Positions 2,992 to 56,633 of a DNA stretch of 64,000 nucleotides are shown one piece after another. Location: positions 75,430 through 139,429 of the forward strand of contig JBARQV010000015.1 in assembly GCA_049643885.1 (NCBI GenBank). The letters are read 5' to 3'. The number at the start of each line of letters is the position of its first letter. Position 1 is the first letter of the stretch. This stretch comes from Candidatus Omnitrophota bacterium (GTDB lineage: Bacteria; Omnitrophota; Gorgyraeia; Tantalellales; Tantalellaceae). The position numbers were made by a program, and so were the translations under genes. The notes below the pieces were generated by a model. It searched no databases. It saw only the letters and a list, made by a program, of their open reading frames with translations, and was not told the DNA's origin.

Positions 2992-3044
2992 TGCCTTGAA
3001 TGAAGCGCTGTTTAGGTGTAAAATAATTGGACAACGGAGGGATT

Positions 3045-5339: not shown

Positions 5340-6173
5340 ATGGCGGTGAAAATTTTTATTACCTGCATCACGGTATTCTTCTTGGCCGGCAATGTATTTT
5401 GCCAGACAGAGGAGATGGAGGTTAAAGTCTTCAGATTGGATCACAGGGAGGCAAGGTCCATGCTCCCGGCCGTGGAACACTTGAAAAGCGGCGAAGGCAA
5501 AGTCACTGTCGATCAAAACTCCAACAGCCTGATCGTTGTCGATCTTCCGGAGAACCTGGAAAGGATAGCTGAAGTCATCAGCATGCTTGACGTTGCACAG
5601 AAAGAGGTCCGTATAAACGTGACCGTTGCGGAAGTCACTGACGCCTTTCTTGGAAAGATCGGAATGGTTTCAGGCCAGGCGATCATCCCGGAAGACAGGC
5701 TCTCGGAGATACAGTACCTGGTCAATACCAGCGAGGATACCAATGTCATCACGGAGATGTCGTTAAGAACTTTAAGCGGTCAGACGGCTAAGCTCCAGGT
5801 AGCCCGTGAGGAGATCCTCTGGGGTGTTACATCCACGCCTGAAGGTAGCACGATAACCGTTTCGCCCGCGGGGATAAGAGCCGCTGGCAGTTTTTTGGAG
5901 ATCTTTCCGAATGTCAACAGAGACGGGTCGATCACAATAACCCTTATGCCGTCAGTGAGCGAATTTGTGGATGAAAGGACTACGCAAAAGAGGGAGGTCA
6001 TTGCCAGCGTGGTCGTTAATAGCGGGGACACGATAGCTCTCGGGGGGTTGAAATCGTCAAAAAGACGTACCAGGCAGGAAAGGATACCTCTTACCGAGCT
6101 TTCCCTGCCCGAGAAGTTCACCGAAGAGGCGCGGATAATGGTCATGTTTCTTACTGCGTCAGTTATAGAATAG
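5340..6173 (+). CDS. minimal secretin-family outer-membrane channel (signal peptide + one secretin-N domain + secretin domain)
   Basis: Secretin-N-like VKVFRLDHREARSMLP...SNSLIVVDLPENLERIAEVISMLD. Secretin core SGQTAKLQVAREE ... VVVNSGDTIALGGL ... IPL...LP ... IMVMFLTASVI. Only 277 aa. Confidence 0.6.
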   Translation: MAVKIFITCITVFFLAGNVFCQTEEMEVKVFRLDHREARSMLPAVEHLKSGEGKVTVDQNSNSLIVVDLPENLERIAEVISMLDVAQKEVRINVTVAEVTDAFLGKIGMVSGQAIIPEDRLSEIQYLVNTSEDTNVITEMSLRTLSGQTAKLQVAREEILWGVTSTPEGSTITVSPAGIRAAGSFLEIFPNVNRDGSITITLMPSVSEFVDERTTQKREVIASVVVNSGDTIALGGLKSSKRRTRQERIPLTELSLPEKFTEEARIMVMFLTASVIE

Positions 6174-6264: not shown

Positions 6265-6314
6265 TTTGTTAATTCGGCTGTAATGATCACTTGATAAACT
6301 CAAGGAGGAGCAAA

Positions 6315-7586
6315 ATGGCAGGAGCGAAGAAGAAAAAGGCAAAAAAAGCGACATCCAGAAAATCAAAAGCTTCAAAACCAAAAACCAGAAAATCAACATT
6401 TAAGAAGTCCGCAACTGCAAAATCAGCCACCAGGAAAAGAGCCGGGAAGTCATCGGTCGATATCTTCGAAAGCGTGAACGTCCCTACGCTCGAACTTGAA
6501 GAGTATGAACCCAGGATGGCTCACGAAGACGCGGTAGAAGATGTTATCGGCGGATCGACTCATTACGCGTGGGTAGGTTCGGGACAGTGCGGCGGCAGGA
6601 TCGTGAAATCGTTCTATGAGCTTGGGTACAGAAAATCCCTTGCCGTAAATACAACTCACCACGACCTGGATCTTTTAGAGCTGCCCAACAACCAGAAGTT
6701 CTTAATGGACATCGGAGAAATGGGCGCCGGCAAAGATATGAGCCGGGGCAAAGAAGCGGCGAACCGCTACCAGCAGGAGATCATCCACATGAAAGGAAAG
6801 ATCTTCGGTTCCCAGATCAATCACATCATGGTCAGTTTCGGAGCCGGCGGCGGTACCGGAAGCGGAAGCGCTACTAAACTTGTAGAGATAGCCAAAAAGT
6901 ACGCCCGCCATATCGGTATAGGCAATCCGGATAAACGCGTAGGCGTAGTCCTGACGCTGCCGACCGTGGGTGAAGCAAGTTCTCCACTGGTATCGCAGAA
7001 CACTTACAACGTAGTTTCAGAGCTGGGCCAGATGGCAATGGAGGGAAAACTTTCCCCGCTGGTGATCATCGACAACGAAAAGATCAGCAAGATGTATCCC
7101 GGCCTGACCGTCAAGACCTTCTGGTCGACCATAAACAATACCGTAGCAGGCCTGTTCGACATATTCAACAGGCTCAGCGCGTTAAGCAGCGAGTACACGT
7201 CGTTTGATACCGTGGATTACCACAGCATCATGGAAGCCGGCGGCTGCGCGATAATGGGTCTTACGAAAGTGACCGAGATCAAAGACAAGTTCGCTTTGTC
7301 GACGGCCGTGAAGAACAACCTGCAAAAGACACTGCTTGCGGACGGGTTCGATCTGGCCTCCGCTAAAGTTGCCGGATGTATAGTGGTCGGCGGGCGCGAT
7401 TTGATGGCAAACGTACCGGGTCTGCAGGACAACATCAACTACGCGTTTGACGTCCTGTCGGATATAACCGGGAAGGCGACCGTCCACAGAGGGATCTATG
7501 AGGATAATAAGGATTCCCTTAGGGTGTACACCATAATCGGCGGTCTTGATCTTCCCACCCGAAGGCTTGCTGAGTTCAAGGCGTAA
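6315..7586 (+). CDS. tubulin/CetZ-like GTPase (FtsZ-tubulin superfamily) with an N-terminal Lys/Ala-rich basic tail
   Basis: T1 loop GSGQCGGRI resembles tubulin GQCGNQ and CetZ GQAGG. Tubulin signature GAGGGTGSG is present. IIDNEKI resembles tubulin DNEA rather than FtsZ PND. T7/H8 region SFDTVDYHSIMEAGGCAIMG aligns with FtsZ NVDFADVRTVMSEMGYAMMG. Residues 2-50 are AGAKKKKAKKATSRKSKASKPKTRKS... AAGGAGG Shine-Dalgarno 5 nt before the ATG at 6315. Confidence 0.8.
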   Translation: MAGAKKKKAKKATSRKSKASKPKTRKSTFKKSATAKSATRKRAGKSSVDIFESVNVPTLELEEYEPRMAHEDAVEDVIGGSTHYAWVGSGQCGGRIVKSFYELGYRKSLAVNTTHHDLDLLELPNNQKFLMDIGEMGAGKDMSRGKEAANRYQQEIIHMKGKIFGSQINHIMVSFGAGGGTGSGSATKLVEIAKKYARHIGIGNPDKRVGVVLTLPTVGEASSPLVSQNTYNVVSELGQMAMEGKLSPLVIIDNEKISKMYPGLTVKTFWSTINNTVAGLFDIFNRLSALSSEYTSFDTVDYHSIMEAGGCAIMGLTKVTEIKDKFALSTAVKNNLQKTLLADGFDLASAKVAGCIVVGGRDLMANVPGLQDNINYAFDVLSDITGKATVHRGIYEDNKDSLRVYTIIGGLDLPTRRLAEFKA

Positions 7587-11361: not shown

Positions 11362-12099
11362 ATGAAATACAAAACAGTATATATTTTTGCGGGAGTCCTT
11401 CTCTGCCTGGTCGCGGTAGCCGTGGTCATGCGGCATTTAAGGATTCCCGCAAAAAAAGGTCTTGTGATATGGAAAGAGGATTTCAGTAAGGCCTCCAGGC
11501 AAGGCGGATCCCTTCTCCCGGAAGGATGGCAACTGAGCAAAAAACCGGGGACCAGGCCCGCTATATTCTCGATAGTTAAGGATCGGTCCGGGGATCATTC
11601 TTATCTTCACATGGAGGCGGTAAAGGGGAGCGCTACGTTGCTTTCCAGGCTTAACGGTGTTGACCTGAATAAAACGCCGATCTTACGGTGGAAGTGGAGA
11701 GCCCCCGTGTTGCCGGATGGCGCCAACGGCAAAATAGGGGCTAAAGATGATCAGGCCATCGGGATCTATGTGGGGACAGGGACAATGTTGAATAAAAAGA
11801 GCATATCATACCGGTGGGATACGGAAACGCCTAAGGGAGCGACGGGGGACAGTGTATACGGTGGGGGGACGGTCAAGGTGAAATGGTATACGCTGCGAAA
11901 TAAAGAGGACGCCAAAAATGGACAATGGATCGTCGAGGAGCGTAATTGCGCCGAAGACTTTAAAAGGGCCTGGGGGTTCTATCCCCGTAAGATTTATCTA
12001 GGCATTTCCTGTAATAGCCAGTATACTAGAACAAAGGCAGCGGCCGACCTGGACTGGGTAGAATTTTTGTCTGCTGCAGATAAAGGCAAATCAGATTGA
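11362..12099 (+). CDS. membrane-anchored hypothetical protein, DUF3047-like (tentative); paralog of 27452-28267
   Basis: N-terminal transmembrane segment. Shares a WKWR...KDD...YRW...EERN..DF motif series with the ORF at 27452. Confidence 0.5.
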   Translation: MKYKTVYIFAGVLLCLVAVAVVMRHLRIPAKKGLVIWKEDFSKASRQGGSLLPEGWQLSKKPGTRPAIFSIVKDRSGDHSYLHMEAVKGSATLLSRLNGVDLNKTPILRWKWRAPVLPDGANGKIGAKDDQAIGIYVGTGTMLNKKSISYRWDTETPKGATGDSVYGGGTVKVKWYTLRNKEDAKNGQWIVEERNCAEDFKRAWGFYPRKIYLGISCNSQYTRTKAAADLDWVEFLSAADKGKSD

Positions 12100-18514: not shown

Positions 18515-21223
18515 GTGGCGATTAACCTGTGGAAAAAATTCGAAGAAACCGCGTCAAGATCGCTTGACAGTATTGCTATCAAGGATAAAAAAGCCGGCAG
18601 ATGGGAAAATATCACTTACGGCGGTTTGAAGCGCAATATAGAGTCTCTGACATCTTTTTTGCAAAAAGAGGGGATAGGGAAGGGCGATAAAGTCGGTATA
18701 GTCCTGGAAAACGGGGCCGAATGGCCGGTGATATTCTTTTCCACGGTTCTGGTAGGCGGCGTTTCTATTCCCCTCAACCCCGCGTCCACGCACGAAGAGA
18801 TCGAAAATATACTTAAAGATTCCGGATGCAAACTGGTCTTTGCCGGGAAAGACTTTTTTGATCCAGTCAGGGAGATATGCCGGAGCTGTCCGGGGGTAGA
18901 AAACGTTATTTTGGTAGACCCCGTATCGTTTAAAAACACGGTTACCGGCCAGCGCGAGGAGGTTGATGTCGGCCAAGTCGGCCGGGATGACCTGGCCTGT
19001 ATCCTGTATACCTCGGGCACGACCGCTGAACCAAAAGGAGTGATGCTTACCCACGGCAACCTCCTGTCTAATTGCGACTCACTGTTCCGGATGAACATTA
19101 TTACTCAAGATGACAGTGTCGTTTCCATACTCCCCCTGCATCATACTTATCCTCTGACAGTGACCATGCTCTTACCGCTTCTATACGGCGGCAAGGTCAT
19201 CTATCCCGGGACAATGCGCGGGGAAGCGGTGCTGGAAGCTATGAGGGAAACAAGAACGACCGTTTTTGTGGCTGTTCCGCAGATCCTGCATTCTTTTGAT
19301 CAAAAGATCGCTGAGCAGATAAAAAAGATCATTTTTCCGTTTAATCTCCTGTTCAGAGCCGTCATTGAGGTTCTTTATAAAATCAGGAATAGAACCGGTA
19401 TAAATCTGAGCCGGTGGGTTCTCGGCAGTATCCACAGAAGATTCGGAAAATCACTGCGGATGTTTGTGAGTGGAGGCGCAAGGCTTGATGAGAACGCCGC
19501 GCGGGATCTGGTCAGGTTGGGCTTCACCATTATTGAAGGATACGGTCTTACCGAAAGTTCTCCAGTCCTTACCCTTAATCCCGCGAAAAAGGCTAAGATC
19601 GGTTCGGTCGGCCTGCCTATACTGGATGTCGAGCTGAAGATCGGCGGCAAGAACGAAGAAGGCGTAGGTGAAGTGATCGCTAGCGGGCCCAATATCATGG
19701 AAGGGTACTATAAAAGGAAAGACCTGACCGCGGAGGCTTTAAAGGACGGGTGGCTTCACACCGGCGATCTCGGTTACATCGACGAAGACGGCTATCTGTT
19801 CCTGACCGGCAGGGTGAAGGATGTTATCGTTTTGAGTTCCGGAGTAAATGTCTACCCGGAAGAGATAGAACATGCCTACCTCAGCGCGTCTCCTGTAGAA
19901 GAGATGTGCGTGTTCGAAGTCCCATCAAAGAAAGAAGAGGACCAGACCCTGACCCTCTGGGCGGTAGTCGTGCCTGACCTTGAGTTTTTTAAAAAATACG
20001 GCGAAATAAATCTCAAAGGGGTAATAAGGGAAAGGTTTGACAATGTCTCCAGGTCCTTGCCCAGCCACATGCGCTTGAGGGGTTTCTCCGTGACCCTTGA
20101 TAAACTTCCCCGTACCCTGCTGGGTAAGGTCAAGAGGTTTGAAGTCAGGGAAAAATTCACCTCGACAGCGAAAGAAGAGATGCTTAAGCCGGAAGAGAGA
20201 GAACTTTCCGGCGGGGATCTTGAACTTATGGAAACAGATCGCGGCAGAAAAATCATTAAGTATCTTGCCAAACAGACCGGCATAAAAAGGTCCATTACTC
20301 CTCCGGATCTTCTGGAGCTGGATCTGGGCATAGATTCCCTGGGAAGGATAGAGCTTGCGGCAGGTCTTGAAAAGGTCCTGGGGATCGAGATAGAAGACGA
20401 GGTCATAGGAAGGGCCTTTACCGTAAGGGACCTTATCAAAGGGGCGGAACCCCTTCTAGCCAGAGCCGGAAAAGCTGTCCCGGCGGAGAAGATATCATAC
20501 ACACCCGGCGAATGGAAAGAAACCCTCCAGGGTCTGCCCGGGAAAGGAAATCTGGAAAAGATAGACCTTCATCCCGGCTGGTGGGCGTGGCTGGCCGGGT
20601 TTCTTTTTACCTGCATGAATAAGGTTTTCTTTAAGCTTTTTTACAGATTAAGAGTCGAAGGGATAGAAAATTTTCCGAAAGCAAGGCCATATATACTCTA
20701 TGTGAACCATGCCAGTTATTATGACGGCTTGATCGTGGCTTCATCCTTGCCGCGTTTCCCCAGGCTGGAGCTTTTTTTCGTCGGGTTCAGGCCGTATTTT
20801 AACGTCCCGATAATACGCAATCTGATAAAGGTCGGCAGGATCATCCCTCTTGATTTTTCTTCACATCTTTTAGAAGCGCTGAAAAGCTGTTATTACGTCC
20901 TTAAGAACAAAGGCGCTCTGTGCCTTTTCCCGGAAGGCATACGCACTCTTACCGGCGAGATAGGTGAGTTCAAAAAAGGTTTCGGGATCCTGGCAAAAGA
21001 GACAGGGGCGAAACTTGTGCCGGTTCTGATCGAAGGGGCATACGAAGCCTGGCCCAGGACCTCAAAGTATCCAAAGATACATCCCCTGAAGGTGAGGTTC
21101 GGAAAGGCCCTGGACCCGGAAGAACTTGAGAAAGAAGGCTTGAAAATGGGGGCGAAGGACGGTTATACGGCAATATGCATGTCCGCGAGAAAGATCCTCA
21201 TCGACATGAAAGACCGTACGTAA
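18515..21223 (+). CDS. tri-domain acyl-AMP ligase (AMP-binding) - phosphopantetheine carrier - 1-acylglycerol-3-phosphate acyltransferase fusion (Aas-like)
   Basis: AMP-binding YTSGTTAEPKG and TGDLGYIDEDGYLFLTGR. Carrier LGIDSLGRIEL carries the DSL Ser. LPLAT HX4D VNHASYYDG and FPEGIRT. GTG start. Confidence 0.75.
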   Translation: MAINLWKKFEETASRSLDSIAIKDKKAGRWENITYGGLKRNIESLTSFLQKEGIGKGDKVGIVLENGAEWPVIFFSTVLVGGVSIPLNPASTHEEIENILKDSGCKLVFAGKDFFDPVREICRSCPGVENVILVDPVSFKNTVTGQREEVDVGQVGRDDLACILYTSGTTAEPKGVMLTHGNLLSNCDSLFRMNIITQDDSVVSILPLHHTYPLTVTMLLPLLYGGKVIYPGTMRGEAVLEAMRETRTTVFVAVPQILHSFDQKIAEQIKKIIFPFNLLFRAVIEVLYKIRNRTGINLSRWVLGSIHRRFGKSLRMFVSGGARLDENAARDLVRLGFTIIEGYGLTESSPVLTLNPAKKAKIGSVGLPILDVELKIGGKNEEGVGEVIASGPNIMEGYYKRKDLTAEALKDGWLHTGDLGYIDEDGYLFLTGRVKDVIVLSSGVNVYPEEIEHAYLSASPVEEMCVFEVPSKKEEDQTLTLWAVVVPDLEFFKKYGEINLKGVIRERFDNVSRSLPSHMRLRGFSVTLDKLPRTLLGKVKRFEVREKFTSTAKEEMLKPEERELSGGDLELMETDRGRKIIKYLAKQTGIKRSITPPDLLELDLGIDSLGRIELAAGLEKVLGIEIEDEVIGRAFTVRDLIKGAEPLLARAGKAVPAEKISYTPGEWKETLQGLPGKGNLEKIDLHPGWWAWLAGFLFTCMNKVFFKLFYRLRVEGIENFPKARPYILYVNHASYYDGLIVASSLPRFPRLELFFVGFRPYFNVPIIRNLIKVGRIIPLDFSSHLLEALKSCYYVLKNKGALCLFPEGIRTLTGEIGEFKKGFGILAKETGAKLVPVLIEGAYEAWPRTSKYPKIHPLKVRFGKALDPEELEKEGLKMGAKDGYTAICMSARKILIDMKDRT

Positions 21224-25516: not shown

Positions 25517-27001
25517 ATGAAGTTATTTAAAATTCTATGCGTTCTGGCGCTCGTGTTCGCATTTACCACGATCGCGTATGCCGAAACGCAGAGCGTAAAG
25601 GTGAGCGGCGATATCGCGCTGCGCACTTTTGCGAGAAACAACTATGATCTGGACAACGATGACGCTGTTGCAACGAACAACGGTGCGGAATCCACGGACT
25701 GGGCGTCATATCTTCTGAGCACCGCGGAAGTCCAGATCGATGCCGACCTGACCGATAATGTGTCCGGTGTCATAAGACTGGTGAACCAGAGAGTGTGGGG
25801 TTCCGGTGTTTATAACAGCCAGACTGCAGGGACCAGCGAGCTCGGCAGCACCCAAGAGCCTTTCATGAATGCGGTCGTAGGCAGACAGGTTAATCCGGGC
25901 AGCGCCGCGGCATTTGACGTTGATGTTGACCTGGCTTATATCGAGCTGAAAGAGTTCCTGTACTCTCCTCTTACACTGAGGATAGGTCGTCAGGATCTCT
26001 GGTTCGGTAAAGGCTTCATCATGGGCAATTCGTTGCTTGATCCAAACGGCAGCATCTATCCGCAGGAATATACAGCTATCAATTCGTTTGATGCTGTCAG
26101 GGCGACCTTGGACTATGATCCTTGGACCATCGACTTAGTGTACGCTAAAATAATGGAAAACATGAGAAGAGCCGATGATGATGTGAACCTGTGGGGCGCG
26201 AACATAGGGTATGTTTTCGACGAGTACAACGCGGAAGCCGAAGCTTACTGGTGGTATAAGCAGGACAGGAACGTAGGTTCTGCTGTCGCTACTGGCGTGC
26301 CCAGGGCCAGCGTCATAAACGGCGCGGACTCCAACGACGTTTTCTGCTGGGGCGGCCGTGGAAGCTTTGATCCCATCGAAGACTGGACGATCGCCGTCGA
26401 AGCCGCGTATCAGCACGGCGAATTTGTCGGCGTGAACAGCCAGATGGAGAGAAGGCCAAGAAGCGCGTGGGCTATCGACGCCATGATCGAATGCCGTTAC
26501 TGGCAGGATGATTTCGCGTGGAGGCCTGTTGTCGGCGCAGAATACATCTTCTACTCCGGCGAGCAGAACATGGGTAACATGAACACCCTTTCCGATGCCA
26601 CTTACAACGGATGGGACCCGATGTTCAGAGGCAAGTTCGACACAGCCATCAGAGAGTTCCAGAACGTGTTCTATCGTACCGCTATGGCCAGCACCCCGTC
26701 ATCGACAAACCAGCACCAGTTGCTGGTCCGCGGCACTTTGGAACCGACCGACAGCCTGACACTCGACGCGGTGTACGGTCACTTCTGGCTTGCGGAAAAT
26801 TGGGCCACAGTGAACGACGTCGTTCCCGAGAACAGGAAGAAGAACGTGGGTGATGAATTCGACCTTAAGCTGACTTGGGATTATACCGAGGATGTTCAGT
26901 TCAGCCTTCTGGCTGGATGGTTCTTCCCGGGTGATCACTTCACCAGCGGCCTGGACGACACAGCCACCGACCTTGTCGGTACAGTGAAACTCAGCTTCTA
27001 A
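25517..27001 (+). CDS. outer-membrane beta-barrel protein (porin/alginate-export-like), C-terminal Phe
   Basis: Signal peptide. Alternating amphipathic beta-strand pattern, Gly/Tyr/Trp-rich. Terminal ...GTVKLSF. Confidence 0.65.
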   Translation: MKLFKILCVLALVFAFTTIAYAETQSVKVSGDIALRTFARNNYDLDNDDAVATNNGAESTDWASYLLSTAEVQIDADLTDNVSGVIRLVNQRVWGSGVYNSQTAGTSELGSTQEPFMNAVVGRQVNPGSAAAFDVDVDLAYIELKEFLYSPLTLRIGRQDLWFGKGFIMGNSLLDPNGSIYPQEYTAINSFDAVRATLDYDPWTIDLVYAKIMENMRRADDDVNLWGANIGYVFDEYNAEAEAYWWYKQDRNVGSAVATGVPRASVINGADSNDVFCWGGRGSFDPIEDWTIAVEAAYQHGEFVGVNSQMERRPRSAWAIDAMIECRYWQDDFAWRPVVGAEYIFYSGEQNMGNMNTLSDATYNGWDPMFRGKFDTAIREFQNVFYRTAMASTPSSTNQHQLLVRGTLEPTDSLTLDAVYGHFWLAENWATVNDVVPENRKKNVGDEFDLKLTWDYTEDVQFSLLAGWFFPGDHFTSGLDDTATDLVGTVKLSF

Positions 27002-27018
27002 GTAAATCTTAGCAGCTT

Positions 27019-27057
27019 AAAAAACCGGCCTGCTTTTAAAGCAGGCCGGTTTTTTTA
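27019..27057 (+). terminator. intrinsic terminator (AACCGGCCTGC-TTTTAAA-GCAGGCCGGTT then T7)
   Basis: 11-bp perfect stem plus U-tract after the outer-membrane protein gene. Confidence 0.85.
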
Positions 27058-27141
27058 TGTCCGCTCATTATTATTGACTTTTGCGGTTTAACCGCTAAAA
27101 TATAGTAAATAATATTAATATATAGCAGTGAAAGGAGCGGG

Positions 27142-27450
27142 ATGAAAAACAAACAAGAGGGCAATCTTTACGCTGTATTGTCCTATCTCTGGGTTCTATG
27201 CCTTATACCGATCTTGTTAAAAAAAGATGACGAATTCATTATTTTTCACGCCAAGCAGGGGCTGGTGCTGTTTATCACGGAAGCAGCGTTCAGCATAATA
27301 GGGATAATCCCGCTTTTGGGCGGGCTGGTCGCAAAACTCGGGATATTTATCTGCGGTATACTTTCTCTTATCGGGATAGTGCAGGTTCTAATGGGCAATA
27401 AATGGAAAATACCTGTGATAGGGGATTGGGCCGAAAGAATTACAGTTTAG
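27142..27450 (+). CDS. DUF4870-family small membrane protein
   Basis: YAVLSYLWVLCLIPIL...GII motif, typical of DUF4870. Confidence 0.55.
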   Translation: MKNKQEGNLYAVLSYLWVLCLIPILLKKDDEFIIFHAKQGLVLFITEAAFSIIGIIPLLGGLVAKLGIFICGILSLIGIVQVLMGNKWKIPVIGDWAERITV

Positions 27451-27451
27451 A

Positions 27452-28267
27452 GTGAAGTTACCCATTAAGATACTTATAATATCGTTAGTTGTCGCCTTGA
27501 TCCTGGCAGCCATAGGCATGATAATAGAGACGGTGAGGCGGGCAAGAAAGCCTCCCGAAAAGGCCGGGCTGGAGGTCGTGAAACATTTTACGCTTTCCTC
27601 AAGTTCCGAGATGAAAGAGCTTGATGACAAGCTTCTGGCCGACAGCCGGACCAGTTACGTTATTTCTGAAGCGGATGGCGACAAATTTTTAAAAGCTGTC
27701 AGTGAAGACTCGGCTTCAGCTCTTTTTTATCGGCATAAATTAGTGCCGGAAAAACGTCCTTTCGTCAGCTGGGACTGGAAGGCGGGCAAGTTCCCCTCCA
27801 GGTCAAAAGAAGAAGCCCTGGACAAAAAGGATGAATTTGATTTTGTCGCCCAGTTCTATGTGATATTTTCATCAAGGTTCTTTCTGAATGCCAAAGCGAT
27901 CCAGTATGTCTGGACTGAGAATGTCCCGGCCGGGACCGTTAGCGATAGCCCGTACACAAAGAACGTTAAGATCCTTGTTTTGGAGTCAGGTATGTCGGAA
28001 GAATGGAAACACGAGGAGAGGAATATAAATGAGGATTTTGAAAAACTTTTCGAGGAAGAACTGAATGAGGACGTCGATGCTGTAGCTCTGATGACGGATT
28101 CGGACAGCACTGATACCAGCGCGGAGGCGTATTTCAAGGATATAAAGATAGGGTATCTTGGAGCTCTTCCGGGCGAGAAGAAAAGCAGAATGAGGAAACG
28201 CAGGAGCAAGGCCGAAAGATCGAAACGTTTTCCTTTTCTAAAAATAAAAGGTGCTTATACTAATTAG
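27452..28267 (+). CDS. membrane-anchored hypothetical protein, paralog of 11362-12099 (DUF3047-like, tentative)
   Basis: GTG start. Transmembrane anchor. Shared W-D-W-K, YVW, EERN..DF and SD..T...A.AYF motifs with the ORF at 11362. Confidence 0.5.
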   Translation: MKLPIKILIISLVVALILAAIGMIIETVRRARKPPEKAGLEVVKHFTLSSSSEMKELDDKLLADSRTSYVISEADGDKFLKAVSEDSASALFYRHKLVPEKRPFVSWDWKAGKFPSRSKEEALDKKDEFDFVAQFYVIFSSRFFLNAKAIQYVWTENVPAGTVSDSPYTKNVKILVLESGMSEEWKHEERNINEDFEKLFEEELNEDVDAVALMTDSDSTDTSAEAYFKDIKIGYLGALPGEKKSRMRKRRSKAERSKRFPFLKIKGAYTN

Positions 28268-33230: not shown

Positions 33231-33269
33231 TAATGGAGTTTGGGATTTTTCATGTAAAGGGGGTGAAGC

Positions 33270-33563
33270 ATGATCTTTGGGATTTTCAGGAAAAAGAAAG
33301 AGGAAGAGATAAAAGGGGTCCTTATTGGGGAAGTCGTGCATTATTTCCGGAAGGTAAAAGCCGCGGTGATCAAAATAAAAAAGAATAAAGTTTCCGTCGG
33401 CGACGACATACGGATCAAAGGTCATACTACGGATTTCGGCCAGAAGGTCAAATCGATGCAGATAGACCATGAGTCCGTTGAAAGCGCCGCAAAGGGTAAA
33501 GAGGTGGCGATCAAGGTAGGGAAGAAGGTAAGAAGAGGGGACAAGGTATATATAGTAAGCTAA
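33270..33563 (+). CDS. hypothetical small protein (EF-Tu domain-2-like beta-barrel?)
   Basis: Pattern VGDDIRIKGHTT...EVAIKV...GDKVYIV is reminiscent of translation-factor beta-barrel domains. Weak assignment. Confidence 0.4.
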   Translation: MIFGIFRKKKEEEIKGVLIGEVVHYFRKVKAAVIKIKKNKVSVGDDIRIKGHTTDFGQKVKSMQIDHESVESAAKGKEVAIKVGKKVRRGDKVYIVS

Positions 33564-52828: not shown

Positions 52829-53818
52829 TTATTCTTGGCGGGATGAAATCCTGATATGATCTATGTAGATAGGTCCGGAATAGGCCGGTTTGCCGTTCGA
52901 CTCGACCCTTATAGCTATTTTCCTGATATCTGACTTGAAAGCGTCATCGACTTGTGTCCTTTTCCAGTCCCTGCTTTCTTCGGAGAAACTGGCCCTTATA
53001 GTGGTCCACTCTCCCGGGATCAGTCGGACGCTTCGGGTCATCTCCACGAATTTCCATGTTTCGCCTATAGTGATGATCAGCTTGGCTCTCAGGCCTTCAG
53101 GGGCCGAAAGGGGCAGGAATAGATCGGCTTCGATAATATCGAAATCTTTCAGATCGAGAAATTGCTGGACTTCGACCAGGGCCGCGGACCAGCCGGTCCC
53201 GGGGAATTCCGCGGCAAGTTCCAAACTGCTGGATCCATTGCTGGCTGCGTTTCCCGTCTTCATGAGAGACCTTGCCACGTGGTCGGCTTTTTCGAGTTCC
53301 CATGCGGGTATTTCCCAGCCTTCTTCGTCGATCTCGAAATCGTAAAGCGTTTTTATGGTATATGTTCCCGGCACCGGCTCGGGCTTAACGGGCTTAGTCC
53401 ACGCATCTTTGCTCAGGACAGGGACGGTCCGGACGGCTCCCGGTCGTACATGTTCAGCTCGAGCGGGTCCGGTCCGGACAGGTTCCGGAACGGCCGCGGC
53501 CGCCGGTTTCACCTCAGGCGTTTCTTTTTCTACATTGATGCTTACATTGAATACGACGCGTTTATCGCGGAAGAAATAGCCGGCGAAAAACATGATAGCA
53601 CTGACCATCCAGAGAACGAGGAGGAAAACCGCTACTGGCGACCACCAGCGCCGTTGAACAGGGCGGGGAGCTTTTTCATCTTGGCCATCCCGGGGATGGC
53701 CATCTCTGAGTTGGAGCGATTTTTGATCTTCCGTGCCGCCGAAATACGTTCGGGACAGTTCAAGGTCTATCTCGTCGCGTGTCCTTTGTTTTTCCATTAA
53801 AATCGACCTCACAACCAT
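52829..53818 (-). CDS. bitopic membrane protein with Pro-rich linker and C-terminal beta-sandwich (carbohydrate-binding-like) domain, hypothetical
   Basis: Cytoplasmic N-terminus, one transmembrane segment, PEPVxPEP linker, C-terminal ...GPIYIDHIRIS ending typical of CBM-like jelly-roll domains. Confidence 0.45.
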   Translation of the reverse strand: MVVRSILMEKQRTRDEIDLELSRTYFGGTEDQKSLQLRDGHPRDGQDEKAPRPVQRRWWSPVAVFLLVLWMVSAIMFFAGYFFRDKRVVFNVSINVEKETPEVKPAAAAVPEPVRTGPARAEHVRPGAVRTVPVLSKDAWTKPVKPEPVPGTYTIKTLYDFEIDEEGWEIPAWELEKADHVARSLMKTGNAASNGSSSLELAAEFPGTGWSAALVEVQQFLDLKDFDIIEADLFLPLSAPEGLRAKLIITIGETWKFVEMTRSVRLIPGEWTTIRASFSEESRDWKRTQVDDAFKSDIRKIAIRVESNGKPAYSGPIYIDHIRISSRQE

Positions 53819-53924
53819 TATATTAAAAATAGAAAAGGCTCGTCAAGTGTAATATATCATATTTACTAACCACTTCTATTATGATATACTTTCTTAAAAT
53901 CAAACTAAAACACAGGAGGATAAG

Positions 53925-54968
53925 ATGAAAATAATATCTGTTGCCAATCAAAAAGGCGGGTGCGGCAAAACTACGTTGGCAATTAACATCTCCGCGGCTT
54001 TATCCAAACTCGGGAACGAGACGCTTCTAATAGATCTCGACCCACAGGCACATGCGACGTATGCCATGGGGTTTGGCAAGGAGTCGTCAAGCTTCAAGAC
54101 TTCTTATGATATTTTCCGCGCTCATTTTGATTCAAGCGCAATACCGTTCGATGATATTATCTTGACCGGCAGGGATAAGCTGTCCTTTATGCCCGCGAAT
54201 ATGCTTCTCAGCGCGGCGGAGATCAATCTTGGAGGAGTGAACGGCGCCGCGGCCATATTGTCCAGGACTCTATCCGATCCTTTTTTCGAGAGATACGAAT
54301 ACGTGGTCATCGATTCTCCGCCGAGTTTCGGGTTTTTGACCTTGAATTCGATGTACGCGGCGGATATGATCCTTGTTCCGTTGGATCTAGGTTATTTCGC
54401 GCTTAACAGCGTGAACAGCGTGTACAGGGTGACCAGCCTGTTGAACTCTGAAACCGGAAGGGAACCTTCGGTGTTTTTCGTCCTTAACCTGTTTGACGGA
54501 CGCTCGAATTTTTCCAGGAATCTGGAAAACGATGCCCGGAAAAAGCTAGGCCAGTATCTTCTTTCGACAAGGGTCCGATCAAGCGTGAGGATCAGAGAGG
54601 CCGCCCAGTTCGGCCAGACGATATTCGAATATGCGCCGAAATCCAAGCCCGCGCTGGATTTTTATGACTTGACCAGCGAGATCATGACTATTAGGAATAA
54701 AGATATCAACATGAGCGTAAAGGAGTTTTTCGTTCAGGCGCCTCAAGCCGATGAGGTATATGTGCTCGGAGATTTTAACGGGTGGCAGAAATCGCCGGTA
54801 AGCCGTCTCACCAGGCTTGGGAACGGGAATTGGGCGGCGCATATCATGCTGGATAGGGGTAAATACAGGTACAAATATCTGGTCGACGATCAGTGGACCC
54901 ATGATGTCAGTAATCCCCTTAAAGAGATCAATTCTTTCGGAAGCATCGATTCCATAGTGGAAGCTTAG
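53925..54968 (+). CDS. ParA/MinD-family ATPase fused to C-terminal CBM48 (AMPK-beta glycogen-binding) domain
   Basis: Deviant Walker A KGGCGKTT. C-terminal EVYVLGDFNGWQK...YKYLVDDQWTHDVSNP aligns closely with AMPK-beta GBD (GSFNNW...YKFFVDGQWTHDPSEP). Confidence 0.8.
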   Translation: MKIISVANQKGGCGKTTLAINISAALSKLGNETLLIDLDPQAHATYAMGFGKESSSFKTSYDIFRAHFDSSAIPFDDIILTGRDKLSFMPANMLLSAAEINLGGVNGAAAILSRTLSDPFFERYEYVVIDSPPSFGFLTLNSMYAADMILVPLDLGYFALNSVNSVYRVTSLLNSETGREPSVFFVLNLFDGRSNFSRNLENDARKKLGQYLLSTRVRSSVRIREAAQFGQTIFEYAPKSKPALDFYDLTSEIMTIRNKDINMSVKEFFVQAPQADEVYVLGDFNGWQKSPVSRLTRLGNGNWAAHIMLDRGKYRYKYLVDDQWTHDVSNPLKEINSFGSIDSIVEA

Positions 54969-54980
54969 AAAGGCAGGACC

Positions 54981-55928
54981 ATGACACAACCCGTAATTTA
55001 CGATAAGAAGAAGCAGGATATAGTAATCCGCTATCCGGGTAATCCTATCCTGACCAAAGACGATGTTCCAGCCGCGGCAAAGGGAGTTTATAATTCAGGC
55101 TGTATAAAACTTAAAAATGGGAAGTATGTCATGCTATGCCGGGTCGAGACGCCATCCATGAAACAGATGATCTGGCCCGCTGATTCCGATGATGGCATAG
55201 ATTTCAAGTTCAGGACAAAACCTATAAAAATGCCTGATACGGAAGAATTCAGGGAATACACCGCCGGCATGTATTACGATCCCAGGGTAACGGAAATAGA
55301 GGGTAAATATTACCTGGTTTTCGCGTGCCACAGCGGGCATTCCTGCCGTCTGGGGCTCATGAAATCCCCCGACATGAAAGAATTCAAATGGAAAGGGTTT
55401 ATTTCCGAGACCGATAACCGCAACGGGGTCCTTTTTCCGGAAAAGATAAACGGATATTACTGCCGCCTGGACAGGCCCAATACCGGCGACGGGAAGGGCT
55501 ATATCTGGATATCTTACTCCCCGGACCTTATTCACTGGGGCCAATCGAAAGCGTTAGCCTTGACCCAGGACGAATGGGGATGGAAAAAGAACGGTTCCGG
55601 CGCGGTTCCCATCAAGACCGATAAAGGGTGGCTCGTTATATATCATGCTGTAAATGTCCAGTGTGCCGCCCAGTATGTTTACCACCTTGGGGTCATGCTC
55701 CTGGACATCAAGGATCCATCGAAGATCGTGGCCCGGGCTAAAGCCCCGATACTTTCTCCGACAACCGATTATGAGCTTAACGGGCTTACCTACGCGGTAG
55801 TTTTCACCTGTGGCGCGGTGCCCGAGGATGACGGTGAAGTCAAGATCTATTACGGCGGCGCGGATACTGTCCAGTGTCTGGCCACGGCAAGACTTGAGGA
55901 TTTGATAGACGCCTGCTTTAACCGATGA
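54981..55928 (+). CDS. GH130-family glycoside phosphorylase/hydrolase (beta-mannoside phosphorylase-like)
   Basis: 5-bladed beta-propeller GH130 pattern, including YNSGCIKLKNGKY, WISYSPDLIHW and the C-terminal KIYYGGADT. Confidence 0.7.
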   Translation: MTQPVIYDKKKQDIVIRYPGNPILTKDDVPAAAKGVYNSGCIKLKNGKYVMLCRVETPSMKQMIWPADSDDGIDFKFRTKPIKMPDTEEFREYTAGMYYDPRVTEIEGKYYLVFACHSGHSCRLGLMKSPDMKEFKWKGFISETDNRNGVLFPEKINGYYCRLDRPNTGDGKGYIWISYSPDLIHWGQSKALALTQDEWGWKKNGSGAVPIKTDKGWLVIYHAVNVQCAAQYVYHLGVMLLDIKDPSKIVARAKAPILSPTTDYELNGLTYAVVFTCGAVPEDDGEVKIYYGGADTVQCLATARLEDLIDACFNR

Positions 55929-55934
55929 CCACCC

Positions 55935-56357
55935 ATGCCGGGATATAACGTAAGCCAGAAAAAAGAGAAAAATCTCAGGGAGAAAATGCGCCGCCTGGGC
56001 ATAAAGGAAAGCGACCTTAGCGAGCGGTTCATACGTTCCGGAGGACACGGCGGCCAGCATGCCAATAAAGTATCTACGTGTGTGCATTTGAGGCACAGGC
56101 CGACCGGAATAGAAGTCAAATGCGGGCGGGAAAGATCGCAGGCATTGAACAGGTTTCTGGCAAGGAGGATACTGGCGGACAAGATAGAGGCCGTGAAGCT
56201 TGGCAGGGAGTCGGAAGAAAGAAAGCGTATCGAGAAAATAAGAAGACAAAAACGAAAAAGATCGAAAAGGGCGAAAGAAAAGATACTGGCGAACAAGAAG
56301 AAACGCGCCGAGAAAAAGAAACTGCGCAAAACCCCACACTTCCATGTAGGGGAATGA
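55935..56357 (+). CDS. arfB: alternative ribosome-rescue factor ArfB (peptidyl-tRNA hydrolase, RF-1 domain)
   Basis: GGQ motif RSGGHGGQHANKVST. Basic C-terminal tail. 140 aa. Confidence 0.8.
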   Translation: MPGYNVSQKKEKNLREKMRRLGIKESDLSERFIRSGGHGGQHANKVSTCVHLRHRPTGIEVKCGRERSQALNRFLARRILADKIEAVKLGRESEERKRIEKIRRQKRKRSKRAKEKILANKKKRAEKKKLRKTPHFHVGE

Positions 56358-56387: not shown

Positions 56388-56633
56388 ATGAAGAAGATAA
56401 CGCTTGATCTGCACGACATCTTTAATAAAGGCAAAGATATAGACAAGGCCCTCAGGGATATCTTGATCGAAGCTCGCGAGACAAAGGTAAAAATAGTCGA
56501 GATAATCCCGGGAAAGGGTTCAGGTCAACTGAAGAAGAGGGTTTTGAAATTTCTCGAGCGGAACAAAGACCTTTACGGCCGGGTGGACAAGGATTCAAAA
56601 AACTGGGGCAGATTATTCGTTCGCCTCAAATAA
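56388..56633 (+). CDS. Smr-domain protein (stand-alone small MutS-related nuclease domain)
   Basis: LDLHD...EA...I.....K...V.IIPGKGSG.LK..V..FL motif order of Smr domains. 81 aa. Confidence 0.7.
   Translation: MKKITLDLHDIFNKGKDIDKALRDILIEARETKVKIVEIIPGKGSGQLKKRVLKFLERNKDLYGRVDKDSKNWGRLFVRLK

What the first reader, a model, noticed from the sequence alone, without database searches (positions are those of the whole stretch)
52829..55928. ParA-type ATPase fused to a CBM48 glycogen-binding module, flanked by GH130 and a CBM-like membrane protein
The ORF at 53925-54968 combines a deviant Walker-A ParA/MinD ATPase (KGGCGKTT) with a C-terminal domain that aligns nearly residue-for-residue with the AMPK-beta glycogen-binding domain (GDFNGW, YKYLVDDQWTHDVSNP). 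ParA-like ATPases are known to position carboxysomes, PHB granules, chemoreceptor arrays and plasmids. A fusion to an alpha-glucan-binding module suggests an uncharacterised system for positioning, partitioning or tethering glycogen or polysaccharide granules. The gene is transcribed divergently from a bitopic membrane protein with a C-terminal carbohydrate-binding-like jelly-roll, and is followed 12 nt later by a GH130 glycoside phosphorylase.
Basis: partly seen in the sequence, partly recalled or inferred. Interest (0 to 1): 0.75.

Follow-up and report, generated by a model that had tools for sequence, protein, structure and literature searches.

The report
ParA ATPase fused to glycogen-binding module
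A real, widely conserved but unstudied bacterial gene joins a ParA-type "cargo-positioning" ATPase to a glycogen-binding module, and in this phylum (Omnitrophota) it always travels with a small membrane protein, which suggests that bacteria may actively tether or position their glycogen stores.

Summary
ORF 53925-54968 encodes a 347-aa protein with a Soj/ParA-type ATPase (deviant Walker A KGGCGKT) joined by a ~7-residue linker to a CBM48/AMPK-beta-type glycogen-binding domain. The sugar-contacting residues are conserved. The 3.1-kb region is 100% identical in three independent assemblies, so it is not an artefact. The organism is a Candidatus Omnitrophota bacterium.

(1) The fusion is a very large family found in at least 10 phyla. 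Sources name it only "AAA family ATPase" or "chromosome partitioning protein", and I found no paper on it. (2) GH130 is a clade-specific neighbour, present in 6 of 10 close loci and in no other locus. (3) The membrane protein is the real partner. Across four deep Omnitrophota clades (ParA identity down to ~32%) the adjacent gene encodes a bitopic protein with a conserved N-terminal helix motif (ELSRTYF / EHLAKIYL / QLADIYF), one TM helix and a CBM-like beta-sandwich. The pair moved together when the ancestral cluster (porin, GH57 amylopullulanase-like enzyme, partner, ParA-CBM48) broke up.

No ParB or parS lies nearby. Best reading (about 0.45): an orphan ParA that binds alpha-glucan directly and tethers or positions it. 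Function is inferred, not shown.

The parts
53925..54968 (+). ParA-CBM48 fusion gene (347 aa)
   Evidence: AF2 model pLDDT 89, pTM 0.87. Identical in three independent assemblies.
53925..54689 (+). Soj/ParA-type ATPase domain (residues 1-255). Deviant Walker A QKGGCGKT lies at 53949-53972.
   Evidence: AAA_31 137 bits. Best PDB sequence hits are ParA 8RAY and Soj 1WCV/6IUB, E 1e-33 to 1e-28. Foldseek TM (target-normalised) 0.85-0.92 to Soj/ParA. K10, K15, D37, D39 and D130 are conserved in 77-78 of 78 family members.
54711..54965 (+). CBM48 / AMPK-beta-type glycogen-binding domain (residues 263-347)
   Evidence: AMPK1_CBM 43.8 bits and CBM_48 27.1 bits, both above cut-off. AMPK beta1 GBD E 1e-12. 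W287 and W324 are present in 78/78 members; K317 is K/R/Q. These correspond to W100, W133 and K126 of AMPK beta1 (PMC4032982).
53819..53924 (.). Divergent promoter region. Minus strand TTGACG-18-TATAAT at 53846-53817; plus strand TTTACT-17-TATACT at 53862-53890; AGGAGG Shine-Dalgarno at 53914-53919.
   Evidence: These are consensus matches only.
52829..53797 (-). Bitopic membrane partner protein (322 aa; the ORF extends to 53818)
   Evidence: Adjacent to ParA-CBM48 in all Omnitrophota clades examined.
53741..53776 (-). Partner N-terminal cytoplasmic helix motif D-x-I-D-x-E-L-S-R-T-Y-F (residues 8-19)
   Evidence: E13 and F19 are invariant; D8, I10 and Y18 are at least 90% conserved in 27 homologues. 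Predicted as a helix at residues 9-19. Related motif variants occur in the other clades. Motif + single TM is found only next to ParA-CBM48: 30 of 1328 ORFs, all at -1 or -2.
53564..53638 (-). Partner transmembrane helix (residues 54-78)
   Evidence: AF2 helix 54-78; hydrophobic stretch.
52838..53362 (-). Partner C-terminal CBM-like beta-sandwich (residues 146-320), probably periplasmic
   Evidence: pLDDT about 95. Foldseek hits: 1WKY mannanase CBM (E 1e-8), CBM27 1PMH/1OF3, then CBM11 and CBM28. Pfam CBM27 and Mann_GBD_bact. A paralogous family of 196-238 aa, one member labelled a lipoprotein, shares this domain.
54981..55928 (+). GH130 beta-mannoside phosphorylase-like gene, probably co-transcribed; a clade-specific neighbour
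   Evidence: GH130 166 bits. Nearest PDB: TM1225, UhgbMP and beta-1,2-mannobiose phosphorylase. Present in 6 of 10 clade-A loci and absent from all other loci.
25517..27450 (+). Remnant of the ancestral neighbourhood: Alginate_exp-type outer-membrane porin (25517-27001) followed directly by a 'c3' small TM protein (27142-27450)
   Evidence: for the porin. hmmsearch with the c3 profile gives E 2e-39. In clade B the order is porin, GH57, partner, ParA-CBM48, c3, c2.
33267..33560 (+). 'c2' homologue (Lys-rich tail plus EF-Tu-domain-2-like barrel), a downstream neighbour of ParA-CBM48 in clade B
   Evidence: hmmsearch E 7e-35; weak Pfam GTP_EFTU_D2 match.

Best explanation
The gene encodes an orphan Soj/ParA-type P-loop ATPase that carries its own cargo-binding module. 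On binding ATP it should form the usual sandwich dimer, which would display two CBM48 domains that bind alpha-1,4/1,6-glucan (glycogen or maltodextrin-like polymer) in the cytoplasm. The dimer most likely also binds a matrix. In most phyla that matrix would be the nucleoid, through the Soj-like basic patch. In Omnitrophota it would be the inner membrane, through the conserved N-terminal cytoplasmic helix of the adjacent bitopic protein. ATP binding and hydrolysis would then tether, position or distribute glycogen particles, without a separate adaptor such as ParB or McdB.

Shown: the architecture, conservation of the ATPase catalytic residues and the sugar-binding residues, the family's breadth, the absence of ParB/parS nearby, and the conserved pairing with the membrane protein.

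Inferred: glucan binding, dimerisation, DNA or partner binding, and the positioning function itself.
For: The domain calls are above Pfam cut-offs. The ATPase is closest in sequence and fold to chromosomal Soj/ParA, and the catalytic K10, K15, D37, D39 and D130 are conserved in 77-78 of 78 members. The CBM48 matches the AMPK beta1 GBD at E 1e-12. The residues reported as critical for carbohydrate binding (W100, K126, W133, N150; PMC4032982) correspond to W287 (78/78), K317 (K/R/Q), W324 (78/78) and D341 (N in other clades). Conservation across at least 10 phyla argues for selection on sugar binding. The Soj DNA-contact position HpSoj K230 aligns to R222 and is K or R in 62/78 members. No ParB is detected in the window or in about 90 loci, and no parS in the window, so this is an orphan ParA. 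In Omnitrophota clade B a cytoplasmic GH57 sits 2 genes upstream in 12 loci (Pfam 227 bits; nearest PDB is a GH57 amylopullulanase, E 2e-85). Most Ace Lake Omnitrophota MAGs in one study (9 of the 12 species tabulated) are predicted to make glycogen (PMC8542988). Partner pairing: a small bitopic protein sits at -1 in 38/75 loci against 17/1072 in the background. Motif + TM proteins are found only next to ParA. The motif variant tracks the ParA clade. The pair relocated together in the window's lineage.
Against: There is no biochemical evidence. No glycogen synthesis gene (glgA/B/C/P) is adjacent in any locus examined, and outside Omnitrophota the neighbours are unrelated to glucans. GH57 linkage is confined to one clade of related genomes (ParA 57-83% identical), so it could be inherited synteny. 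Ca. Aadella gelida carries an orthologue (P0049) but was reported with trehalose synthesis and no glycogen synthesis (91% complete MAG; PMC8542988). Fusing the cargo-binding domain to ParA itself does not fit the canonical diffusion-ratchet model, in which the ATPase coats the matrix and an activator sits on the cargo. No ATPase activator has been identified. Soj DNA-contact residues are only partly conserved: the K247 equivalent is basic in 20/78 members and the K227 and K199 equivalents are not basic. The Omnitrophota partner is a membrane protein with an extracytoplasmic CBM, which points towards the envelope rather than the nucleoid.
Confidence: 0.45

Rival explanations
1. Glucan-sensing regulator. 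The CBM48 acts as a sensor of glycogen or maltodextrin load, as in the AMPK beta subunit. It would modulate ATP-dependent dimerisation of the ParA domain, which in turn controls another process such as division-site placement, envelope growth or chromosome organisation, possibly through the membrane partner. Glycogen would be a signal, not a cargo.
For: The closest sequence relative of the C-terminal domain is the regulatory AMPK beta GBD rather than an enzyme-appended CBM48. The very short linker and high pTM (0.87) suggest a fixed ATPase-CBM arrangement suited to allosteric coupling. In the window clade the gene lies about 4.5 kb upstream of mraZ and the dcw cluster. No cargo-side activator was found.
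Against: Proximity to the dcw cluster is confined to the close clade A and is absent in clades B-D and in other phyla. No FtsZ-interacting or other effector element is identifiable. In many other phyla the linker is long (proteins of 400-500 aa), which argues against a conserved rigid allosteric coupling.
Confidence: 0.2
2. BcsQ-like organiser of an envelope polysaccharide machine. The ParA-like ATPase docks on the cytoplasmic N-terminus of the bitopic CBM protein and localises or assembles a trans-envelope glycan secretion or uptake apparatus (inner-membrane CBM protein plus an Alginate_exp-type outer-membrane porin). The CBM48 would hold the nascent or imported alpha-glucan chain.
For: Pfam CBP_BcsQ matches over residues 1-249 (40 bits, cut-off 21.3), and TIGR03371 BcsQ scores 72 bits, below its cut-off. 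BcsRQ structures appear among the fold matches. The conserved partner is a membrane protein with an extracytoplasmic CBM fold. An Alginate_exp porin lies 2-3 genes upstream in 16 clade-B loci. One non-Omnitrophota locus has a Wzy_C protein downstream.
Against: No glycosyltransferase, synthase or inner-membrane transporter is conserved in the cluster. The ATPase is clearly closer to Soj/ParA (about 32% identity, TM 0.9) than to BcsQ (about 16% identity, TM about 0.77). The porin did not move with the ParA-partner pair in the window lineage. In most phyla the gene stands alone.
Confidence: 0.15
3. Ordinary chromosome-partitioning ParA (Soj), as the automated annotations say, which happens to carry an accessory domain.
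For: The nearest structural and sequence relatives are chromosomal Soj/ParA. JGI names many members 'chromosome partitioning protein'.
Against: No ParB gene is adjacent or within 8-10 kb in any locus examined, and there is no parS-like site in the window. The family has its own invariant signatures (Cys in the Walker A KGGCGKT, DPQxH). From general knowledge, the delta-proteobacterial and Planctomycetota lineages with Mb-scale contigs that carry it normally also have canonical parAB, so this would be an extra copy. That point is inferred and was not tested here. It scores far below the NCBIfam ParA_partition cut-off (103 bits against 180).
Confidence: 0.05
4. Assembly or frameshift artefact that joins two separate genes.
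For: None found.
Against: The 3100-bp region is identical in three independent assemblies. More than 100 orthologues have the same ~347-aa length, and thousands of family members share the architecture. The AF2 model is confident across the domain junction.
Confidence: 0.01

Closest known systems
Chromosomal ParA/Soj (e.g. T. thermophilus Soj 1WCV/2BEJ, H. pylori Soj 6IUB, ParA 8RAY)
   Same: Same fold and about 30% identity over 255 residues. Deviant Walker A with the signature lysine, plus Walker A' and Walker B aspartates. A basic residue sits at the position of HpSoj K230.
   Different: There is no ParB or parS partner nearby. The Walker A carries an invariant Cys. An extra C-terminal CBM48 follows directly after the last helix. 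Other Soj DNA-contact residues are only partly retained.
McdA/McdB carboxysome positioning and other orphan ParA/MinD cargo systems (PpfA, ParC, PomZ, MipZ)
   Same: It is an orphan ParA-family ATPase presumably devoted to a non-DNA cytoplasmic cargo. McdA structures are among the top fold hits (6NON/6NOP).
   Different: Those systems use a separate adaptor or activator protein on the cargo. Here the cargo-binding module is fused to the ATPase itself, and no activator is known.
AMPK beta-subunit glycogen-binding domain and plant CBM48 proteins (SEX4, LSF1, and PTST2 anchored by MFP1)
   Same: Same CBM48 fold family with the two stacking Trp residues and the Lys conserved. SEX4 and LSF1 appear among the sequence hits. 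From my own knowledge, PTST2 plus the membrane-anchored MFP1 offers a conceptual parallel: a CBM48 adaptor tied to a membrane anchor that sets where glucan granules form.
   Different: Here the domain is bacterial and cytoplasmic and is fused to a P-loop ATPase, not to a kinase scaffold, a phosphatase or a coiled-coil protein.
PhaF / PhaM nucleoid tethers of PHA/PHB granules (own knowledge)
   Same: The proposed logic is the same: one protein binds both a storage granule and a cellular matrix, so that granules are distributed to daughter cells.
   Different: These proteins are unrelated in sequence and are passive, with no ATPase cycle.
BcsQ (ParA/MinD ATPase of cellulose secretion)
   Same: The Pfam CBP_BcsQ model matches above its cut-off. 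It is a ParA-like ATPase working with membrane-embedded polysaccharide machinery through small partner peptides.
   Different: Similarity is much lower than to Soj. No synthase, BcsR or BcsE equivalents are present, and BcsQ has no CBM.
CBM27 / mannanase galactose-binding-like CBMs (for the partner's C-terminal domain)
   Same: Beta-sandwich jelly-roll fold. Best Foldseek hits are 1WKY and 1PMH/1OF3, and Pfam CBM27 is at its cut-off.
   Different: Identity is only 17-21%. The domain is attached to a bitopic membrane anchor with a conserved cytoplasmic peptide rather than to an enzyme. Its ligand is unknown.

Membership tests
ParA/MinD (SIMIBI) P-loop ATPases | Deviant Walker A KGGxxGK[ST] with the signature lysine | tested here: met
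   QKGGCGKT at residues 9-16. K10 and K15 are present in 77/78 aligned family members, with one gap.
ParA/MinD (SIMIBI) P-loop ATPases | Walker A' / switch aspartates and Walker B aspartate; overall fold | tested here: met
   D37, D39 and D130 are present in 78/78 members. AAA_31 scores 137 bits. Foldseek TM (target-normalised) is 0.85-0.92 to Soj/ParA.
ParA/MinD (SIMIBI) P-loop ATPases | ATP-dependent dimerisation and ATPase activity | not testable with these tools
   This needs biochemistry. Only a monomer model could be made.
Chromosomal ParABS partition system | Adjacent or cognate ParB (ParBc domain) partner | tested here: not met
   No PF02195 appears among the Pfam-annotated neighbours within 8-10 kb in 12 loci. 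A ParB elsewhere in the genome cannot be excluded.
Chromosomal ParABS partition system | parS centromere sites | tested here: not met
   The window has 0 matches to TGTTNCACGTGAAACA (consensus from memory) with up to 3 mismatches. Only 64 kb was searched.
Chromosomal ParABS partition system | Non-specific DNA binding through a basic patch (Soj R189 / HpSoj K199, K227, K230, K247; residue list from memory) | tested here: inconclusive
   The K230 equivalent, R222, is K or R in 62/78 members. The K247 equivalent, K239, is basic in only 20/78. The K227 and K199 equivalents are not basic, although R218 and R193 lie nearby.
CBM48 / AMPK-beta glycogen-binding domain | Profile match above the curated threshold | tested here: met
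   AMPK1_CBM scores 43.8 bits (cut-off 26.8) and CBM_48 scores 27.1 bits (cut-off 22.4). phmmer to 1Z0M/4YEF gives E about 1e-12.
CBM48 / AMPK-beta glycogen-binding domain | Carbohydrate-contact residues W100, K126, W133 and N150 of AMPK beta1 | tested here: met
   W287 and W324 are invariant (78/78). K317 is K (37), R (35) or Q (6). The N150 equivalent is D341 in the window clade and N in other clades. The residue list comes from PMC4032982.
CBM48 / AMPK-beta glycogen-binding domain | Actual binding of glycogen, amylose or cyclodextrin | not testable with these tools
   This needs a pull-down or ITC experiment.
ParA-type cargo-positioning system (McdAB-like) | Separate cargo-bound adaptor with an ATPase-stimulating N-terminal peptide encoded nearby | tested here: inconclusive
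   No McdB- or ParB-like gene was found. In Omnitrophota a conserved adjacent bitopic protein has a conserved N-terminal helix, but it has no invariant basic 'finger' residue and it is membrane-anchored. In other phyla there is no conserved neighbour.
BcsQ (cellulose secretion ATPase) | Equivalog-level match and Bcs operon context (BcsA, BcsB, BcsR, BcsE) | tested here: not met
   TIGR03371 scores 72.5 bits against a cut-off of 157.85. No bcs genes are present in any neighbourhood.
GH130 (neighbour gene 54981-55928) | Pfam Glyco_hydro_130 match; similarity to characterised beta-mannoside phosphorylases | tested here: met
   Pfam scores 166 bits. PDB hits are TM1225 at 5e-57, UhgbMP at 1e-45 and beta-1,2-mannobiose phosphorylase at 2e-45. 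It is below all NCBIfam equivalog cut-offs, so substrate specificity is unresolved.
CBM27 (partner C-terminal domain) | Profile match and fold | tested here: inconclusive
   CBM27 scores 20.6 bits at a cut-off of 20, and Mann_GBD_bact scores 25.6 bits, below its cut-off of 27. The fold matches CBM27, CBM11 and CBM28 at 16-21% identity. The ligand was not determined.

The most novel reading that the evidence does not exclude
ParA-CBM48 defines a previously unrecognised, adaptor-free class of ParA positioning system found in many phyla. It grips storage glycogen directly and uses ATP cycling to tether or distribute it. In Omnitrophota it is wired to a transmembrane protein with a periplasmic carbohydrate-binding domain, which would physically or regulatorily couple an extracytoplasmic glycan cue to the organisation of cytoplasmic glycogen.
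Probability: 0.3. Interest if true: 0.8.

Novelty: new variant of a known kind. Interest (0 to 1): 0.66.

Why it matters
Whether bacteria actively organise or partition glycogen, their most common carbon store, is an open question. Uneven glycogen inheritance has been linked to ageing in E. coli (PMC4836754, title and abstract seen). ParA-family ATPases are known to position chromosomes, plasmids, carboxysomes, chemoreceptor arrays and division sites, always through a separate adaptor.

A ParA with a built-in glycogen-binding module, conserved in thousands of sequences across at least 10 phyla and named only 'AAA family ATPase', gives a concrete and testable handle on that question. It would also extend the ParA paradigm to adaptor-free cargo binding. 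The conserved membrane partner in Omnitrophota adds a second testable interaction in a phylum with almost no experimentally studied cell biology.

Tried and rejected
(1) Assembly or frameshift artefact: rejected.

(2) GH130 as a functional partner: rejected as a general feature. It is present in 6 of 10 clade-A loci and in no other locus. It may still be co-transcribed in this genome.

(3) Link to the dcw cluster: the locus lies upstream of mraZ only in the close clade, so I treat it as inherited synteny.

(4) Conserved neighbours outside Omnitrophota: Pfam on 20 downstream genes from Desulfobacterota, Planctomycetota, Krumholzibacteriota, Gemmatimonadota and others, plus three Pfam-annotated Planctomycetota contigs, showed no common theme and no glucan genes.

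(5) Glycogen genes or ParB elsewhere in the 64-kb window: none among 30 larger ORFs. No GH57 was found by a profile search of the six-frame translation.

The library excludes most subscription papers, so this is absence of evidence only.

(7) NCBIfam sub-typing of the GH57, c2 and c3 proteins returned nothing.

Full report
**1. What is there**

Window positions 52829-55928 hold three real genes.

- ORF 53925-54968 (+) encodes 347 aa. Pfam gives AAA_31 (137 bits) and CbiA for residues 1-233. For residues 268-341 it gives AMPK1_CBM (43.8 bits, cut-off 26.8) and CBM_48 (27.1 bits, cut-off 22.4).
- ORF 54981-55928 (+) starts 12 nt after that stop codon and is GH130 (166 bits).
- ORF 52829-53818 (-) is divergently transcribed and encodes a bitopic protein.
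- The 106-bp intergenic region carries an 11/12 sigma70-like promoter for the minus-strand gene. That favours the ATG at 53797 (322 aa), which is also the NCBI-annotated start. On the plus strand there is a promoter-like site and an AGGAGG Shine-Dalgarno 5 nt before the ParA ATG.
- Downstream follow an RF-1-domain (ArfB-like) gene, Smr, an SNF transporter, PC4, PilZ and then mraZ with the dcw cluster.

**2. It is not an artefact**

The 3100-bp region is 100% identical in three independent assemblies: two NCBI MAGs and one ENA metagenome scaffold. More than 100 orthologues of ~347 aa at 60-74% identity exist, and those that carry a source name are labelled Candidatus Omnitrophota or Omnitrophica. 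The AlphaFold2 model is confident across the junction (pLDDT 89, pTM 0.87). The last ParA helix ends at residue 255 and the first CBM strand starts at 263.

**3. The two domains**

*ATPase domain.*
- It is closest in sequence to chromosomal ParA/Soj: 8RAY, 1WCV/2BEJ and 6IUB, with E 1e-33 to 1e-28.
- It is also closest in fold: Foldseek TM 0.85-0.92 at about 30% identity, ahead of McdA, MinD, FleN and BcsQ.
- The signature and P-loop lysines and the three catalytic aspartates are conserved in 77-78 of 78 aligned family members.
- The family has its own invariant marks: a Cys in the Walker A (QKGGCGKT) and a DPQxH motif.
- Of the Soj DNA-contact residues, the HpSoj K230 position is R222 here and is K or R in 62/78 members. 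The K247 position is K239 here but basic in only 20/78. The K227 and K199 positions are not basic. Nucleoid binding is therefore plausible but unproven.

*C-terminal domain.*
- It matches the AMPK beta1 glycogen-binding domain at E about 1e-12, then LSF1, AMPK beta2, pullulanase, GlgB and SEX4.
- The residues reported as critical for carbohydrate binding in the AMPK beta1-cyclodextrin structure are W100, K126, W133 and N150 (PMC4032982). They map to W287, K317, W324 and D341.
- The two Trp residues are invariant in 78/78 members from many phyla. The Lys is K, R or Q. The Asn position is N in most clades and D in the window clade.

**4. Breadth of the family**

The 80 best include full-length matches in the following:
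- Omnitrophota
- Thermodesulfobacteriota and other 'delta' lineages
- Myxococcota
- Planctomycetota (Phycisphaerae, Pirellulales, Sedimentisphaerales)
- Gemmatimonadota
- Acidobacteriota
- Krumholzibacteriota
- Zixibacteria, Eisenbacteria, Rokubacteria and Auribacterota
- Gammaproteobacteria

A profile of 17 non-Omnitrophota members retrieved 7,998 proteins at E <= 1e-30, which was the scoring cap. All of the top 120 carry AAA_31 + AMPK1_CBM, nearly all with CBM_48 as well, at lengths of 366-499 aa. They are named only 'AAA family ATPase' or 'chromosome partitioning protein'. Six literature searches found no paper on the fusion.

**5. Gene neighbourhoods**

I called ORFs in 88 loci, clustered them by BLASTP and placed each cluster relative to the fusion gene.

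- *GH130.* It occurs in only 6 of 10 close (clade A) loci and nowhere else, so it is a lineage-specific neighbour.
- *Outside Omnitrophota.* The gene is essentially stand-alone. Pfam on 20 downstream genes and on three annotated Planctomycetota contigs showed no shared theme, no glucan genes and no ParB.
There is no parS-like site in the window.
- *Within Omnitrophota.* The adjacent gene always encodes a small bitopic protein. There are four deep clades, with ParA identity between clades of 32-48%. The layout is a short N-terminal helix motif, a basic stretch, one TM helix, a linker and a beta-rich domain.
- *The motif tracks the ParA clade.* Clade A has IDxELSRTYF on the divergent strand. Clade B has IYEHLAKIYL on the same strand. 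Clade C has QLADIYF or ELAKTYF. Clade D has a looser L..xF[FL].
- *Specificity.* A motif + single-TM filter hits 30 of 1328 ORFs, all at -1 or -2 of ParA-CBM48. The motif was derived post hoc, but its specificity is real. A motif-free definition (150-380 aa with one TM in the first 110 residues) is met at -1 in 38 of 75 loci against 17 of 1072 other ORFs (Fisher p about 1e-36; the loci are not phylogenetically independent).
- *Clade B order.* The conserved order is an Alginate_exp outer-membrane porin, GH57, the partner, ParA-CBM48, a small DUF4870-like TM protein (c3) and a Lys-rich/EF-Tu-D2-like protein (c2). The GH57 scores 227 bits in Pfam and, judged from its N-terminal sequence, has no signal peptide. 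Its nearest solved relative is a GH57 amylopullulanase at E 2e-85 (PMC12106739).
- *Relocation in the window genome.* The window still has the porin (25517-27001) followed directly by c3 (27142-27450), with c2 at 33267-33560. The partner and ParA-CBM48 now sit about 26 kb away with the partner inverted, and no GH57 is in the window. The pair therefore moved as a unit, which is the strongest argument that they work together.

**6. The partner protein**

In 27 full-length homologues, E13 and F19 are invariant and D8, I10 and Y18 are at least 90% conserved. The two linkers are hypervariable. The C-terminal ~170 residues are rich in invariant Trp.

AF2 gives a helix at 9-19, a TM helix at 54-78, disordered linkers and a beta-sandwich at 146-320 with pLDDT about 95. 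Foldseek matches mannan-binding CBMs (1WKY, and CBM27 1PMH/1OF3), then CBM11, CBM28, CBM22 and CBM16, at 16-21% identity.

A shorter paralogous family of 196-238 aa, one member labelled a lipoprotein, shares only this domain. That fits an extracytoplasmic location. The N-in topology is inferred from the Lys/Arg-rich stretch before the TM helix.

**7. Interpretation**

*Shown.* This is an intact Soj-type ATPase with a sugar-binding-competent-looking CBM48. It is an orphan, with no ParB or parS nearby. The family is large and spans many phyla. In Omnitrophota it has an obligate-looking membrane partner and, in one clade, an alpha-glucan hydrolase neighbour.

*Inferred.* The ATP dimer would present two CBM48 domains to cytoplasmic glycogen and simultaneously bind a matrix, either the nucleoid or, through the partner's N-terminal helix, the membrane. 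It would thereby tether or position glycogen. I put this at about 0.45.

*Main reservations.*
- No glycogen-synthesis gene is adjacent anywhere.
- An orthologue occurs in a MAG reported to lack glycogen synthesis (Ca. Aadella gelida).
- A cargo module fused to the ATPase does not fit the classical diffusion-ratchet mechanism.
- No activator is known.

*Rivals.*
- A glucan-sensing regulator in the AMPK-beta manner (0.2).
- A BcsQ-like organiser of an envelope glycan machine (0.15).
- A plain chromosome ParA (0.05).
- An artefact (refuted).

**8. Novelty and score**

The components are known families. The combination, and the conserved ParA-CBM48 plus bitopic-CBM pair, appear undescribed. I classify it as a new variant of a known kind, namely ParA/MinD positioning ATPases. 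Interest is 0.66. It is a widespread and easily testable candidate for active organisation of bacterial glycogen, but every functional statement is still inference.

Noticed in passing
window 6291-7586 (+), next to 5340-6173 (+): A 431-aa highly divergent tubulin/FtsZ-like protein (Pfam Tubulin 46.6 bits; TIGR00065 ftsZ 55 bits against a cut-off of 295) lies directly downstream of a short secretin-like protein. It may be a non-canonical FtsZ paralogue.
   Followed up: partly
window 25517-27450 and 33267-33560: An Alginate_exp-type porin is followed directly by a homologue of the 'c3' small TM protein, with a 'c2' Lys-rich/EF-Tu-D2-like protein 6 kb further on. These look like the remains of the clade-B operon from which the partner + ParA-CBM48 pair, and GH57, have been removed.
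   Followed up: yes
Loci L017, L022, L025, L027, L033 and others (clade B), position +1/+2; also L006 and L019: A conserved ~136-aa protein has a ~60-residue Lys/Arg/Ser-rich N-terminal tail and a small beta-barrel (weak EF-Tu domain 2 match). The tail resembles the basic tails of ParA activators or DNA-binding proteins, so this could be a missing activator or adaptor.
   Followed up: partly
P0163 against P0147 (same MAG, GF409), and P0188: Omnitrophota also encode a shorter family of 196-238 aa, one member labelled 'small lipoprotein YifL'. It shares only the partner's CBM-like domain at about 50% identity, so it is a paralogous periplasmic CBM family.
   Followed up: no
window 55935-56357 and 56388-56633: An RF-1-domain (ArfB-like peptidyl-tRNA hydrolase) gene and a stand-alone Smr-domain gene follow GH130 with 6-nt and 30-nt gaps. 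This pair is conserved next to ParA-CBM48 in the close clade even where GH130 is absent.
   Followed up: partly
window 3027-4559 (+): A 510-aa protein has two Thy1 (ThyX) matches, apparently a tandem-duplicated flavin-dependent thymidylate synthase.
   Followed up: no
window 18515-21223 (+): A 902-aa fusion of AMP-binding, phosphopantetheine-binding and acyltransferase domains (Aas-like lysophospholipid acylation enzyme) lies downstream of an MFS transporter.
   Followed up: no
window 11362-12099 and 27452-28267: There are two DUF3047 proteins in one window. The second sits immediately after the c3 gene in the remnant cluster.
   Followed up: no
The exact window ParA-CBM48 protein was not returned by the large homologue search (best hit 74% identity). 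Yet the same gene is called on contigs of that collection (L088-L090), and the neighbouring partner was returned at 100% identity.
   Followed up: no
L023 11128-12045 and L059 3339-4277: In two loci a second, N-terminally extended CbiA/ParA-like ATPase (305-312 aa) lies directly downstream of the ParA-CBM48 gene.
   Followed up: no
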